7,836 nt of DNA from a virus (taxonomy: Duplodnaviria > Heunggongvirae > Uroviricota > Caudoviricetes): positions 1 through 7,836 of the IMG/VR virus record IMGVR_UViG_2695420687_000010; one strand, given 5' to 3'. Position numbers and translations under genes: made by a program. This document shows positions 2,147 to 6,874 of the stretch, piece by piece. Under the pieces are notes generated by a model that saw only the letters and a list, made by a program, of their open reading frames with translations, was not told the DNA's origin and searched no databases. Each line of letters opens with the position of its first letter. Positions within the stretch are counted from its first letter, which is position 1.

Positions 2147-2672
2147 CAGGGGGTTTTTGGCGCCATACGCCTGCGCAGTAAGTCCGGTAGTGCTCATGCG
2201 CCTCGGTGACTTTCAGTACCTCCTCAGAACTGTAACCATACTCCCGCATGGAAGATGCAGAACGGGCAAAAAGGCTGGCGTTATCAGAAAACGCCGTCCC
2301 CGTTCTCTGGCTGATCGCCATTAATTCACGCTGTGATGCCTGAAAATCATCACTGGACTGTGAGGCCTGCTTCAGACGGGCATTTACTGAATTCCACTCA
2401 TCGGCGAGAGAAATAAGATGACCGGTAGCAAAAGCCCCGGCAAATGCCCCCGCCATATTCAGTGCCGAAGATTTAGCTGTATTTATCTGATCCGTCACTT
2501 CTGCCAGTGCACGCCGCATTTCACGGGAGGCAGCAGCAGACTGTTGGCCTCCGTTCTGCATGGTGCGGTAGTAATCCTGCCCCATACGCGAAGCCCGGGA
2601 GATCTCTGACTGGAATGACCGGGAGTTTGCCGAGATTTTAATAATCAGTTCACGTAATGTCGCCACACTCAT
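2147..2672 (-). CDS. Phage tail tape measure protein, N-terminal ~175 codons only (3' end cut at breakpoint)
   Basis: Minus-strand ORF MSVATLRELIIKISANSRSFQSEISRASRMGQDYYRTMQNGG...NMAGAFAGAFATGHLISLADEWNSVNARLKQ has N-terminal tape-measure character and sits directly downstream of the G/G-T chaperone pair, as in lambda/HK97 tail modules. Start is ATG at 2670-2672; GTG at 2664-2666 has better spacing to GGAG. The exact 3' breakpoint is uncertain (about 2146-2200). Confidence 0.7.
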
Positions 2673-2682
2673 TCTCCGGACG

Positions 2683-2704
2683 AAAAAAAACCGCCGAAGC
2701 GGTT
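2683..2704 (-). terminator. Weak intrinsic terminator or RNA hairpin between the T-frame stop and the tape-measure start
   Basis: On the minus-sense RNA: AACCGC-UUCG-GCGGUU (6-bp stem with UUCG tetraloop) followed by a U-run (plus-strand A8 at 2683-2690), then GGAG and the start codon. Confidence 0.45.
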
Positions 2705-2712
2705 ATGTTGAC

Positions 2713-3024
2713 TCACTGAGACACTATTAAAAGCGCATTTTCCAGTCCGGCAAATGGATCTGAAGCGCCTTCTGTCTGCTCCTTCTCCCACTGAAGAAGC
2801 GCATCATTCAGTGACACTTTGACCCCCTGCGCACCGTAAACAGCTGAAACAATCTGGGCAGCCCGGAAATCAGCCCGTTCGTCCCCCAGCGGGCTGAACC
2901 TGTCAAATTCTGCCCACATCATGATTTCTGATGCGGACATTTCCCGGCGTAACTCTGACAATGTGCGCCCCATCCTGAGCGCCAGCATCATCAGAAAACG
3001 CATCCCCGGAAGCGCTACTTTTTT
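2713..3024 (-). CDS. Tail assembly chaperone T-frame segment (C-terminal extension of the G-T fusion, reached by -1 frameshift from G)
   Basis: The frame is open only from 3024 (T-frame stop TAA at 3025-3027 just upstream), with no independent RBS/start; it lies -1 relative to the G frame and downstream of the slippery heptamer. Translation ..KKVALPGMRFLMMLALRMGRTLSELRREMSASEIMMWAEFDRFSPLGDERADFRAAQIV.. resembles phage minor tail protein T family. Stop TGA at 2713-2715. Confidence 0.7.
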   Translation of the reverse strand, partial: KKVALPGMRFLMMLALRMGRTLSELRREMSASEIMMWAEFDRFSPLGDERADFRAAQIVSAVYGAQGVKVSLNDALLQWEKEQTEGASDPFAGLENALLIVSQ

Positions 3025-3386
3025 TTAACCTCGCCGGCATCACTGATCAATTCCAGAGACTGCCGAAGAAGCCGCGCATGCACCGGGCCATACACGGCAA
3101 TCACCTGTTCACGATCATCCTCTGAAAATACGGGTTGCAGTCCGGTATCACACAGAACATCAATGAACAGTTCAACATCTGCCTCCAGATTTCGGCGGGC
3201 GCGCTCCGCAACGGATAACGGTGTCTCATCATCTTTTGCTTTAACGATCTCCTGCCAGCGCAACCAGGCTTCTGCAGAAGGTTCCCGTAACACAACCGTT
3301 GCTCCCTCCCATTCAGGCACATCAACGGTTTTATGGCGAAACCCCGACATCGTTGCCAGTGCCAGATTACGGATATTTTTAGTCAT
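3015..3386 (-). CDS. Tail assembly chaperone G (minor tail protein G-like)
   Basis: ORF ..MTKNIRNLALATMSGFRHKTVDVPEWEGATVVLREPSAEAWLRWQEIVKAKDD...ISDAGEVKKK* sits between the major tail protein and the T frame and ends in the slippery site. Preferred start is ATG 3384-3386 (GAGGA 8 nt upstream); the alternative ATG at 3399-3401 overlaps the upstream stop as TAATG. Stop TAG at 3015-3017. Confidence 0.75.
   Translation of the reverse strand: MTKNIRNLALATMSGFRHKTVDVPEWEGATVVLREPSAEAWLRWQEIVKAKDDETPLSVAERARRNLEADVELFIDVLCDTGLQPVFSEDDREQVIAVYGPVHARLLRQSLELISDAGEVKKK
3018..3024 (-). other. Programmed -1 ribosomal frameshift slippery heptamer A_AAA_AAG (G to G-T)
   Basis: Minus-sense mRNA reads GAG GTT AAA AAA AAG TAG: an A8G run ending at the G stop codon. 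A -1 slip on A AAA AAG enters the open T frame. This is the conserved position of the G/GT frameshift in tailed phages. Confidence 0.7.
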
Positions 3387-3400
3387 CACATCCATCCTCA

Positions 3401-4953: not shown

Positions 4954-5291
4954 CACACATTCCCCTTCAGGCTGCAGAGTATTTCAAGCCGGGTAGCGCG
5001 TGCATCCGGTATTGGTGGACCTTCTATACCCAGAATGGCCCCTTTAAATGCACCGGTCAGCACTTTCAGACGTGAAGTCGCTGTCACATCGCGCCGGAAT
5101 CTCATCCAGACTCTGACCGTAGCCTGAGCGGTTTCTGCTCCGTCTGAGATTATCTCCCTCCCGCTGATACCCTTAACTTCTGCCCATACGGTAGCTCCCT
5201 CCGTCACCGTCTCCACCGGATGCCCTGACGGAGAGCGGGCGGTGGTGACATTCAGAATAATTACGCGATCACGTAATCTGCCCGCCTGCAT
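4953..5291 (-). CDS. Phage head closure / head-tail joining protein (Phage_H_T_join-like)
   Basis: 112-aa ORF MQAGRLRDRVIILNVTTARSPSGHPVETVTEGATVWAEVKGISGREII...VRVWMRFRRDV..: the LRxRitI...vWA.v...sgrE...a....t..v.iRyr pattern is typical of head closure proteins. AGGAGG lies upstream of ATG 5289-5291. Confidence 0.75.
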   Translation of the reverse strand: MQAGRLRDRVIILNVTTARSPSGHPVETVTEGATVWAEVKGISGREIISDGAETAQATVRVWMRFRRDVTATSRLKVLTGAFKGAILGIEGPPIPDARATRLEILCSLKGNV

Positions 5292-5299
5292 GTCTCCTC

Positions 5300-5617
5300 C
5301 TACAAAGGAATAAAACGATAAGGCTCCAGCAGAGAAGAAAAACCAAACGGGACTGGTGCCTTGCTGACATCTGAGGAATTTTCCCGGTTTTCGTACCAGT
5401 GCCCGACCAGCAACATGAGCGCCAGCAAAACATCATCAGCTATAAGCACCCCTTCAGGATCACCTTCCGGCACCGTCTCCTCATAAAGCTTACGGTTGAT
5501 AAAATTTTCTGCCTTGCGGCAGGCAGCCCGGAAATACAGCATCAGTAACTCATCATCAGTTGCATCATCTGTATCAATACGGCACTGCGCCCTGAGTTTT
5601 TCCACTATTGCTGCCAT
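5300..5617 (-). CDS. Phage gp6-like head-tail connector (adaptor) protein
   Basis: Using the internal start MAAIVEKLRAQCRIDTDDATDDELLMLYFRAACRKAENFINRKLYEE.. (105 aa): small acidic protein with the 'hl.id.ddddd.l..li.aA...e.yt.r' pattern of connector proteins, GGAG 7 nt upstream of ATG 5615-5617. The 60-aa N-terminal extension in the ORF track overlaps the capsid 3' end and intergenic hairpins and is rejected. Confidence 0.7.
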   Translation of the reverse strand: MAAIVEKLRAQCRIDTDDATDDELLMLYFRAACRKAENFINRKLYEETVPEGDPEGVLIADDVLLALMLLVGHWYENRENSSDVSKAPVPFGFSSLLEPYRFIPL

Positions 5618-5650
5618 CAGAAACTCCTGCCCGCAACACTGTGCGGGCAT

Positions 5651-5672
5651 AAAAAAACCGCGTCGGCGCGGT
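5651..5672 (-). terminator. Intrinsic-terminator-like hairpin plus U-run after the major capsid gene
   Basis: Stem ccgcg(5658-5662)/cgcgg(5667-5671) with a 4-nt loop, followed on the minus-sense RNA by U7 (plus-strand A7 at 5651-5657). A second 8-bp hairpin (5628-5649) lies immediately before the connector RBS. Confidence 0.55.
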
Positions 5673-5693
5673 CTGTAACTGAACAACGAGTGG

Positions 5694-6874
5694 TTATTTG
5701 CCAGTGAGCGCCTTGATGGCTGCCACATCTTCCAGCACACAGTCAAAACGATGGAAAGCCAGAAATGCCACCTGATCAAACTCAGCATAACGCTCAACCA
5801 GACGTTTCAGTTCCATATAAGTAACGCGGCGAATGATAAAGCGGTTGAAATCCCCCAGGAAAATGAATTTTTTTCCAGTACCAATCCCGTCAATAGCCTG
5901 ATCAATAACATAAGGGATCCCCAGCACAGTAGCCGGCGTACCGCCTGCAATATCCGGCAGCCATAACGGGCGTTTCTGTCCATCCTCCATCTCTTCAATA
6001 GTCTGCAATGTGGCATCATTGAATGCCCAGCGGTATTTCGGCCCACCACGATATGCCGGATCAATGGCATGTTTCAGGGCATTCATTTCTTTCCAGGTGA
6101 AAGCGGCAGAGGCTGCAGTCTGGATGGTTCCCGTCACCGACGCTGCCAGCCCTTTTGGCTGTAACGGTGATCCCGTTCCGGTCCCCTGAACCAGATATTT
6201 TGCCTCTCCACGACCAATACGCTGGGCAATACGGTTTGCCAGATAAGATTCAATATCCACCCCACTGTCCTGGAGCAGCTCATTGGACACACGAATTATT
6301 TTTGATGACAGCTTTTTAGCCCCCAGAATAGCGGTCCCGAACGTCACATCCTGTTCCGTTGCGGCTGTATTTTCCGCCAGCAGTTCGCCCTCTTCAGTCG
6401 TGCCATCAGACGTTGACCAGGTGATATCCTGCCCGGTTGATGTGGTCAGAAGTTGCGCCACACTGGCAATCCCGCCATAAGCCTTCATGGTGTCAATGAT
6501 TTTGTTACGCATCTGCGTGGGCACCGTATATCCGCCCTGAGAATCCGTTGTTACACTCTGAGCCCGCAGTTCACGCATCAGATTACGCTCTTCAGCATTC
6601 AGTTCTGCAAATCCGGCACGCAGAAAACGGTTAAATGCCGCAGCACGCTTCTCTTCCACCGCCTTTTTCCCGTTCTCCGCCTCATTATTCTGGCGCTCTT
6701 CCGGCCCGGACTCATCCACATATGCCTGATCCTGACGGCGCAACTCTTCTTCACGGGCGATTTGCTCATCCAGCGCATCCAGCTCAGCTTTCGCCCTGTT
6801 CCACTCTGCCCGTTGCTCATCAGTCCATGCGTTATCACCAATTTTTTCATGCAGTGCACGCATATCCTTTGCAA
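5694..6874 (-). CDS. HK97-family phage major capsid protein, 5'-truncated at breakpoint (about 393 codons present)
   Basis: Translation ..KDMRALHEKIGDNAWTDEQRAEWNRAKAELDALDEQIAREEELRR..AAFNRFLRAGF..LNAEER.. (coiled-coil delta domain) followed by ..YRWAFNDATLQ...FIFLGDFNRFIIRRV..YAEFDQVAFLAFHRFDCVLEDVAAIKALTGK* is characteristic of HK97-fold major capsid proteins. Stop TAA at 5694-5696. The N-terminus is replaced by holC sequence beyond the ambiguous base at 6875. Confidence 0.85.

What the first reader, a model, noticed from the sequence alone, without database searches (positions are those of the whole stretch)
2147..6874. About 4.7 kb HK97/lambda-like siphovirus head-tail morphogenesis module, complete in the middle but cut off at both ends
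Gene order on the minus strand is major capsid, gp6-like connector, head closure, gp10-like, DUF3168, major tail (Ig-like), G, G-T (frameshift), tape measure: the canonical order of HK97-like Siphoviridae. Genes are tightly packed with overlapping start/stop codons (ATGA, TGATG, TAATG) and good Shine-Dalgarno sites, so this part looks functional and recently active. Portal, protease and terminase upstream, and the rest of the tape measure, tail tip, lysis and integration genes downstream, are absent because of the breakpoints, so no statement about an intact prophage can be made from this window.
Basis: partly seen in the sequence, partly recalled or inferred. Interest (0 to 1): 0.45.

Follow-up and report, generated by a model that had tools for sequence, protein, structure and literature searches.

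The report
Common lambdoid prophage head-tail gene block
This is an ordinary, already well-known block of phage head, neck and tail genes, nearly identical to a prophage found in hundreds of E. coli genomes. Here it is stitched, probably artificially, between unrelated pieces of an Escherichia albertii chromosome.

Summary
Every ORF gets the predicted Pfam and PHROG hit.

The DNA matches E. coli prophages at 99.9% (5-6 mismatches in 4,676 nt, no gaps). At least 80% of it is present in 631 of 5,426 complete E. coli genomes, always in the same gene order.

Two corrections:
- Phage DNA runs 2199-6874, not 2147-6874. Bases 2149-2198 are a dinF fragment.
- The breakpoints are not prophage ends. The window is a patchwork of at least eight unlinked fragments: narZ, manA-ydgA, dinF, phage, holC-pepA, rnhB, a fimbrial-like piece and a plasmid dynamin gene. 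The manA-ydgA piece is 99.6% identical to E. albertii. Ns sit at three joins. This is most likely an assembly, cloning or amplification chimera.

Nothing here is new. Interest is low.

The parts
5694..6874 (-). Major capsid protein, HK97-type. It has 392 complete codons of 405. The first 37 nt of the gene are missing at the join marked by N at 6875.
   Evidence: PF05065 Phage_capsid E 1.8e-70 and phrog_10 E 4e-98. The reference CDS maps to window 5694-6911.
5655..5674 (-). Terminator-like GC hairpin followed by a T run, in the 76-nt gap after the capsid gene
   Evidence: Pattern scan. Function is inferred only.
5300..5617 (-). gp6-like head-tail adaptor (Ad1), 105 aa
   Evidence: PF05135 E 5.7e-14 and phrog_40 E 8e-35. 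Same length as the reference annotation.
4953..5291 (-). Head closure / head completion protein (Hc1), 112 aa
   Evidence: PF05521 E 6e-21 and phrog_25 E 4e-31
4507..4953 (-). HK97 gp10-like neck / tail-completion protein (Ne1), 148 aa. Its start overlaps the head closure stop by 1 nt.
   Evidence: PF04883 E 5e-10 and phrog_5 E 3e-35. Overlap shown.
4166..4510 (-). Tail completion / tail terminator protein (Pfam Tail_completion_gp17, formerly DUF3168), 114 aa. ATGA overlap with the gp10-like gene.
   Evidence: PF11367 E 5e-11 and phrog_347 'tail terminator' E 1e-15
4129..4145 (-). Terminator-like hairpin followed by a T run, in the 60-nt gap before the major tail gene
   Evidence: Pattern scan. 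Function is inferred only.
3401..4105 (-). Major tail (tube) protein with a C-terminal Ig-like domain, 234 aa
   Evidence: phrog_158 'major tail protein' E 3e-109. Ig_2 (PF13895) reaches its Pfam cut-off over residues 174-233. The tail-tube families Phage_TTP_11 and Phage_tail_2 hit the N-terminal half only below their cut-offs. The exact protein is indexed in 256 blocks of the assembly collection.
3015..3386 (-). Tail assembly chaperone G, 123 aa from the annotated ATG. A longer ORF starts at 3401.
   Evidence: PF06222 Phage_TAC_1 E 3e-58. The profile begins at the ATG at 3386.
3018..3024 (-). Slippery heptamer A_AAA_AAG, immediately before the G stop codon. Proposed site of the -1 programmed frameshift.
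   Evidence: Read directly from the sequence. The T frame opens only one codon upstream of it, after a TAA at 3025-3027.
2713..3018 (-). T segment, in the -1 frame relative to G. It is expressed only as the 224-aa G-T fusion.
   Evidence: PF06223 Phage_tail_T E 2e-19. The modelled fusion aligns 1-220 of 224 to phrog_14766 in one stretch, E 1.8e-91.
2689..2704 (-). Terminator-like hairpin followed by a T run, between T and the tape measure gene
   Evidence: Pattern scan. Function is inferred only.
2199..2672 (-). Tape measure protein, N-terminal part only. 156 codons from the reference GTG at 2666, or 158 from the ATG at 2672, out of 1,075. Cut at 2199.
   Evidence: PF20155 TMP_3 E 9e-18 and phrog_339 E 6e-65, with all alignments ending at residue 158. 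Homology to every reference ends at 2199.

Best explanation
Window 2199-6874 is an internal 4,676-nt piece of the late (virion structural) operon of a common temperate lambdoid siphovirus of Escherichia. The head genes are HK97-type and the tail genes lambda-type.

How the encoded proteins work is inferred from the families they match, not shown here:
- The capsid protein has an N-terminal scaffolding-like extension of about 112 residues ahead of the PF05065 domain. It assembles on the portal and is trimmed by the S78 protease. Both the portal and protease genes lie just outside this piece.
- The gp6-like adaptor and the head closure protein seal the DNA-filled head at the portal.
- The gp10-like and gp17-like proteins finish the neck and cap the tail tube.
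- The major tail protein polymerises around the tape measure protein, displaying an Ig-like domain on the outside.
- G, and a G-T fusion made by a -1 ribosomal slip at A_AAA_AAG on the last codons of G, chaperone that polymerisation.

The piece is not a prophage in place. It is joined at both ends to unlinked chromosomal fragments inside a patchwork of at least eight fragments. That patchwork is most likely an artefact of assembly, cloning or amplification of an E. albertii sample.
For: Family assignments for all nine ORFs.

Matches elsewhere:
- Ungapped identity of 99.87-99.89% over 4,676 nt to complete E. coli prophages.
- Identity of 97.9-99.7% to deposited phage records.
- A match in 1,147 of 5,426 complete E. 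coli genomes, 631 of them covering at least 80% of the query.
- The same gene order, with terminase, portal and protease upstream and the rest of the tape measure plus M, L, K, I, J and Lom downstream, in an annotated chromosome, a phage record and eight further assemblies.

Frameshift:
- T is in the -1 frame, the slippery heptamer sits at the G stop, and the T frame is closed just upstream.
- The 224-aa fusion aligns end to end with a 224-position PHROG.
- tblastn finds the fusion as two frame-separated pieces in relatives that include HK75, HK633, HK542 and Stx-converting phages.

Chimera:
- Flanks are manA-ydgA (99.6% to the E. albertii type strain, 87% to E. coli), dinF, holC-pepA, rnhB, narZ, a fimbrial-like piece and a plasmid gene. 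These loci are unlinked in the complete E. coli genomes searched.
- Ns lie exactly at three joins.
- The E. albertii reference continues through ydgA where the window breaks.
- The 2198/2199 join is absent from all three public collections.
Against: Nothing contradicts the identification of the module.

For the artefact part, there are no reads or assembly metadata, so a real rearrangement cannot be formally excluded. Short microhomologies at the joins (3, 3 and 11 nt) would also fit illegitimate recombination in vivo. Function of the genes, and the frameshift itself, are inferred from homology and sequence, not measured. The closest 'phage' records (the vB_EcoS-* series) are PHASTER predictions from genome assemblies, not isolated virions.
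Confidence: 0.93

Rival explanations
1. The mosaic is real. A decayed prophage remnant sits in an E. albertii chromosome that has undergone multiple microhomology-mediated rearrangements, so the breakpoints are biological.
For: The one chromosomal flank tested is genuine E. albertii sequence under purifying selection, with third-codon-position mismatches of 29-35% against 2-6% at the other positions. Joins show 3-11 nt of microhomology. Several joins are co-directional and in frame.
Against: At least eight unlinked fragments, some only 50-150 nt, are packed into 7.8 kb. They would leave truncated copies of housekeeping genes (holC, pepA, rnhB, manA, dinF). Ns sit exactly on three joins. The phage piece shows no decay at all: 5-6 substitutions in 4,676 nt and every ORF intact. 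The join is not found in any public collection.
Confidence: 0.04
2. The block belongs to a phage satellite (for example a capsid-forming PICI) or a gene-transfer-agent-like element that keeps only head and neck genes, rather than to a complete temperate phage.
For: Only a subset of structural genes is present in the window. Such elements are known to carry HK97-type capsid and connector genes (own knowledge).
Against: The block includes the major tail, G/G-T and tape measure genes. It is 99.9% identical to the corresponding part of complete prophages that carry terminase, portal, protease, a full lambda-type tail tip, lysis and regulatory genes. The truncation coincides with chimeric joins, not with element ends.
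Confidence: 0.01
3. The phage piece and the plasmid piece come from contaminating E. coli DNA co-assembled with E. albertii reads, so the module says nothing about E. albertii.
For: The phage piece is 99.9% and the plasmid piece 99.2% identical to E. coli sequences. The chromosomal pieces are only 87-94% identical to E. coli.
Against: Mobile elements are commonly shared between Escherichia species (own knowledge), so high identity to E. coli copies does not by itself show contamination. No piece of E. coli-type core genome is present in the window.
Confidence: 0.15

Closest known systems
Lambdoid prophages of E. coli carrying this exact module, for example in strains CE0026f (NZ_CP119000.1, 5,070,000-5,074,700), NT1F25 and EC554
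   Same: 5-6 substitutions in 4,676 nt and no indels. Same nine genes, same order, same ORF lengths.
   Different: Those copies are embedded in complete prophages of about 40 kb. The window copy is cut inside the capsid and tape measure genes and joined to unrelated DNA.
Deposited phage records Escherichia phage vB_EcoS-733R4 / -640R1 / -716R1 / -813R8 (99.7%), PhiR49_2 (98.8%) and Evi LR597642 (97.9%). Phage phi467 (94.9%) matches the tape-measure-to-head-closure part only.
   Same: Same structural module and annotation, from major capsid through to tape measure.
   Different: The vB_EcoS-* records are PHASTER-predicted prophages rather than isolated virions. Evi differs at 96 positions plus one indel.
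Bacteriophage HK97 head genes and bacteriophage lambda tail genes (G, G-T, H)
   Same: Same protein families (PF05065, PF05135, PF05521, PF04883, PF06222, PF06223, PF20155). Same order, and the same -1 frameshift arrangement between major tail and tape measure genes. HK-series phages HK75, HK633 and HK542 encode G-T at 52-61% identity.
   Different: DNA similarity to HK-series phages is confined to about 470 nt of the tape measure gene at 81% (HK544). The slippery site here is A_AAA_AAG, whereas lambda's, from memory, is G_GGA_AAG. The Ig-like tag on the tail tube hits Ig_2, Ig_3 and I-set; lambda gpV, from memory, carries a Big_2-type domain.

Membership tests
HK97-type phage head module | Major capsid protein of the Phage_capsid (PF05065, HK97-fold) family | tested here: met
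   PF05065 E 1.8e-70, profile positions 1-279 of 280. phrog_10 E 4e-98.
HK97-type phage head module | No separate scaffold gene. Instead an N-terminal extension on the capsid protein, with the prohead protease and portal genes immediately upstream. | tested here: inconclusive
   The window holds about 112 residues ahead of the PF05065 domain, but the upstream genes are cut off. In 99.9%-identical prophages the order is portal (PF04860), S78 protease (PF04586), then capsid, with no gene between.
HK97-type phage head module | Covalent capsid cross-linking / experimentally confirmed HK97 fold | not tested
   No structure prediction or residue mapping was done. It was not needed for the verdict.
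Siphovirus neck (adaptor, head closure, neck, tail terminator) | Four small genes between the capsid and major tail genes, belonging to the gp6-like, head-closure, HK97 gp10-like and tail-completion/terminator families, in that order | tested here: met
   PF05135, PF05521, PF04883 and PF11367. phrog_40 (Ad1), phrog_25 (Hc1), phrog_5 (Ne1) and phrog_347 (tail terminator).
Lambda-type G / G-T tail assembly chaperones | Two overlapping ORFs between the major tail and tape measure genes, the second in the -1 frame | tested here: met
   G codon starts are congruent to 2 mod 3 and T codon starts to 0 mod 3 on the minus strand, which is the -1 frame. PF06222 and PF06223 hits.
Lambda-type G / G-T tail assembly chaperones | Slippery heptanucleotide X_XXY_YYZ near the end of G, within the stretch where both frames are open | tested here: met
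   A_AAA_AAG at 3024-3018, directly before the G stop. The T frame opens after the TAA at 3025-3027. The modelled fusion matches phrog_14766 at 1-220 of 224.
Lambda-type G / G-T tail assembly chaperones | The frameshift actually occurs, and G-T is required for tail assembly | not testable with these tools
   Needs protein detection or genetics.
Tape measure protein | Long protein (about 1,000 aa or more) following G-T, with TMP-family domains | tested here: inconclusive
   Only the first 156-158 residues are present. They match TMP_3 (E 9e-18) and phrog_339 positions 1-145 of 1,123. Full-length relatives are 1,075 aa.
Intact integrated prophage | Integrase, attachment sites, and regulatory, lysis, terminase, portal and tail-tip genes contiguous with the structural block | tested here: not met
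   None is in the window. Both ends of the phage DNA abut unlinked chromosomal fragments: dinF at 2198 and holC at 6876.

The most novel reading that the evidence does not exclude
The patchwork is a true in-vivo structure in an E. albertii strain. On this reading a burst of microhomology-mediated joining stitched phage, plasmid and chromosomal fragments together. It produced in-frame fusions: the N-terminus of holC joined to the body of the capsid protein, and dynamin N-terminus / fimbrial-like piece / rnhB middle / pepA C-terminus. The evidence does not strictly exclude this, because no reads are available and the joins carry 3-11 nt of microhomology.
Probability: 0.03. Interest if true: 0.5.

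Novelty: already known. Interest (0 to 1): 0.06.

Why it matters
It matters little biologically. The module is one of the commonest prophage structural cassettes in Escherichia, and it is already annotated correctly by standard pipelines.

The practical value is as a quality flag. The surrounding window is a multi-fragment chimera. Neither the truncated genes nor the apparent fusion ORFs (5694-7097 and 7221-7769) should be read as biology. No conclusion about prophage integrity, integration site or host range should be drawn from this contig.

Tried and rejected
1. I searched for the source contig with a 37-nt exact pattern spanning the 2198/2199 join. It gave no hits in genome contigs, viral contigs or metagenome contigs.

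2. I considered that the 87% identity with zero gaps to E. coli in manA-ydgA might mean synthetic mutation. This is rejected. Mismatches concentrate at third codon positions, and the segment is 99.6% identical to E. albertii.

3. I asked whether co-directional, in-frame joins point to a frame-aware process. Three or four of the seven joins are in frame, against 1/6 expected per join. The TMP/dinF and narZ/manA joins are out of frame and ydgA/dinF is on opposite strands. This is suggestive at most, so I did not pursue it.

4. I looked by eye for a common restriction site at the joins and saw none in the junction sequences.

5. The Rfam scan of the whole window found nothing.

6. A literature search for the named phage records found only the PHASTER-based preprint. 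Nothing turned up on Evi, phi467 or PhiR49_2.

7. Satellite or GTA readings are rejected because tail genes are present and the sequence is near-identical to complete prophages.
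Full report
**What is in the window**

The 7,836-nt window contains six Ns, at 143-145, 2123, 2146 and 6875. The finding's coordinates, 2147-6874, are simply the stretch between two of them. ORF listing shows a run of co-oriented minus-strand ORFs from about 6874 down to about 2200. Plus-strand manA and ydgA lie to the left. Minus-strand holC, pepA and other fragments lie to the right.

**Checking the observation**

I translated each of the nine minus-strand ORFs and scanned Pfam and PHROGs.

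| Window (minus strand) | Gene | Pfam (E-value) | PHROG (E-value) |
|---|---|---|---|
| 5694-6874 | Major capsid | PF05065 (1.8e-70) | phrog_10 (4e-98) |
| 5300-5617 | gp6-like adaptor | PF05135 (5.7e-14) | phrog_40 Ad1 (8e-35) |
| 4953-5291 | Head closure | PF05521 (6e-21) | phrog_25 Hc1 (4e-31) |
| 4507-4953 | HK97 gp10-like | PF04883 (5e-10) | phrog_5 Ne1 (3e-35) |
| 4166-4510 | Tail completion gp17 (formerly DUF3168) | PF11367 (5e-11) | phrog_347 tail terminator (1e-15) |
| 3401-4105 | Major tail protein | Ig_2 above cut-off at residues 174-233; Ig_3 and I-set below cut-off | phrog_158 (3e-109) |
| 3015-3386 | Chaperone G | PF06222 (3e-58) | phrog_344 (1.4e-45) |
| 2713-3003 | T | PF06223 (2e-19) | phrog_337 (4.1e-38) |
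| 2199-2672 | Tape measure N-terminus | PF20155 (9e-18) | phrog_339 (6e-65) |

The packing claims also hold. There is a TGATG overlap at 4953, an ATGA overlap at 4507-4510 and a TAATG at 3401. GGAG-type ribosome-binding sites sit ahead of most starts.

**Boundaries**

- megablast against 5,426 complete E. coli genomes and against 50,697 phage records aligns query positions 53-4728 only, which is window 2199-6874.
- Local BLAST against ten fetched references gives the same end points every time: 5-18 mismatches and at most one gap among the nine prophage references, and 96 mismatches with one indel for phage Evi.
- All tape measure profile alignments stop at residue 158 of the 175 translated.
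- The remaining 50 nt, 2149-2198, match dinF at 88%.

So the right boundary of the finding is exact and the left one is 52 nt too far out.

Relative to the annotated reference (window coordinate = L002 coordinate - 17,802), the capsid gene lacks its first 37 nt. The tape measure gene retains 156 of 1,075 codons.

**What it is**

- The module is 99.87-99.89% identical to prophages in complete E. coli chromosomes.
- 1,147 of 5,426 genomes have a match and 631 hold at least 80% of it. Hosts include humans, pigs, cattle, dogs, soil and seawater.
- Of the six differences from strain CE0026f, two are synonymous and four are conservative-looking replacements. No ORF is disrupted.
- In that chromosome, in phage Evi and in eight further assemblies that encode the identical major tail protein, the neighbourhood is always the same: HNH, TerS (Terminase_4), TerL, a 53-aa ORF, portal, S78 protease, capsid, adaptor, head closure, gp10-like, gp17, Ig-tagged major tail, G, T, 1,075-aa tape measure, M, L, K, I, J, Lom.

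The closest deposited 'phages' (the vB_EcoS-* series, 99.7%) are PHASTER predictions from clinical isolates rather than isolated virions.

**G / G-T**

- On the minus strand the end of G reads GAG GTT AAA AAA AAG TAG.
- T is in the -1 frame. That frame is closed by a TAA at 3025-3027, so it is open only from the slippery heptamer A_AAA_AAG (3024-3018) onward.
- A -1 slip there gives a 224-aa fusion.
- The fusion aligns in a single stretch, 1-220 of 224, with phrog_14766 at E 1.8e-91. G and T scanned separately scored 151 and 137 bits against it.
- tblastn of the fusion against phage genomes finds it in 226 records, and in nearly all the records listed it is split into two frame-separated pieces. 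These include HK75, HK633, HK542 and many Stx-converting phages.

The two-frame arrangement is therefore conserved. That the slip occurs is inferred, not shown.

**How it works (inference from the named families)**

- The capsid protein, with its N-terminal extension, co-assembles on the portal and is processed by the S78 protease.
- The adaptor and the head closure protein seal the packaged head.
- The gp10-like and gp17-like proteins complete the neck and terminate the tube.
- The major tail protein polymerises around the tape measure protein with help from G and G-T, and displays an Ig-like domain on the outside.
- Three terminator-like hairpins with T runs sit in the three largest intergenic gaps: after the capsid gene, before the major tail gene and before the tape measure gene. 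They may modulate transcript levels or stability within the late operon. This is speculation from a pattern scan.

**The surroundings: a chimera**

| Window | Content | Best identity |
|---|---|---|
| 1-142 | narZ | 94% to E. coli |
| 146-2145 | manA-ydgA | 87% to E. coli, 99.6% to the E. albertii type strain NBRC 107761 |
| 2149-2198 | dinF | 88% to E. coli |
| 2199-6874 | Phage module | 99.9% to E. coli prophages |
| 6876-7337 | holC-pepA | 93% to E. coli |
| 7327-7479 | rnhB | 90% to E. coli |
| 7480-7580 | Fimbrial-like | 76% to E. coli |
| 7581-7836 | Plasmid dynamin-family gene | 99.2% to E. coli plasmids |

In manA-ydgA, mismatches to E. coli concentrate at third codon positions, so this is natural divergence.

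These loci are unlinked in the complete E. coli genomes searched. The E. albertii reference runs straight on through ydgA where the window breaks.

Ns lie exactly at three of the seven joins. The other joins show overlaps of 3, 3 and 11 nt between adjacent alignments. Some joins create continuous fusion ORFs: holC N-terminus with the capsid body at 5694-7097, and dynamin N-terminus / fimbrial-like piece / rnhB / pepA C-terminus at 7221-7769. The 2198/2199 join occurs in none of the three public contig collections.

Eight fragments, some only 50-150 nt, in 7.8 kb, with truncated housekeeping genes and an undecayed phage piece, point to an assembly, cloning or amplification chimera of an E. albertii sample. 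They do not point to a genomic rearrangement. Without reads this remains an inference. I give it about 0.8, against about 0.04 for a real structure.

Whether the phage and plasmid pieces belong to that E. albertii strain or to co-sequenced E. coli cannot be decided here.

**Comparison with known systems and novelty**

The module is a member, at near-identity, of a prophage family that NCBI's PGAP pipeline already annotates correctly. It has the HK97-type head and the lambda-type G/G-T/H arrangement. Nothing about its sequence, order or frameshift site departs from known relatives. The verdict is 'already known', with low interest.

The one useful output is the warning that this contig is chimeric.

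Noticed in passing
window 1-7836; joins at 143-145, 2146, 2198/2199, 6875, 7327-7337, 7479/7480 and 7580/7581: The whole window is a patchwork of at least eight unlinked fragments: narZ, manA-ydgA, dinF, phage, holC-pepA, rnhB, a fimbrial-like piece and a plasmid dynamin-family gene. Ns sit exactly on three of the seven joins. A fourth N, at 2123, is just an ambiguous base inside ydgA.
   Followed up: yes
window 146-2145: manA-ydgA is 99.6% identical to Escherichia albertii NBRC 107761 but only 87% to E. coli, so the chromosomal source is E. albertii. By contrast the phage and plasmid pieces are 99.2-99.9% identical to E. coli copies. That means either shared mobile elements or a mixed sample.
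   Followed up: partly
window 5694-7097 (-) and 7221-7769 (-): Continuous ORFs run across the chimeric joins. One joins the holC N-terminus (about 73 aa) in frame to the capsid body. The other joins the dynamin N-terminus, a fimbrial-like piece, the middle of rnhB and the pepA C-terminus, all in frame. A gene caller would report these as false fusion proteins. The excess of in-frame joins is only mildly above chance.
   Followed up: partly
window 2199-2201, 6872-6874, 7327-7337: Adjacent fragments overlap by 3, 3 and 11 nt in their alignments to their respective references. This is microhomology at the joins, as seen in template-switch or overlap-based chimeras and in illegitimate recombination.
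   Followed up: partly
window 5674-5655, 4145-4129, 2704-2689 (minus strand): GC-rich hairpins followed by T runs lie in the three largest intergenic gaps of the module: after the capsid gene, before the major tail gene and before the tape measure gene. The region has ten terminator-like sites, against 4.6 +/- 2.1 in shuffles.
   Followed up: no
window 7098-7220: The holC-pepA intergenic region carries repeated, REP-like sequence. The query 6876-7836, which includes this spacer, has a median of 5 matching places per E. coli genome. It also aligns twice, with an offset, to the reference spacer (7114-7218 is covered by two alignments).
   Followed up: no
window 7480-7580: This 101-nt piece has only a weak match: 76% over 80 nt to a fimbrial protein gene in 39 E. 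coli genomes. Its origin is otherwise unidentified.
   Followed up: partly
L088 1-1672 (GCA_052429755.1, DBJYHJ010000004.1): In one assembly a second, different set of phage genes (partial portal, head completion, connector, HNH, TerS, TerL) lies directly upstream of this prophage's portal gene. This suggests tandem or recombinant prophages at that site.
   Followed up: no
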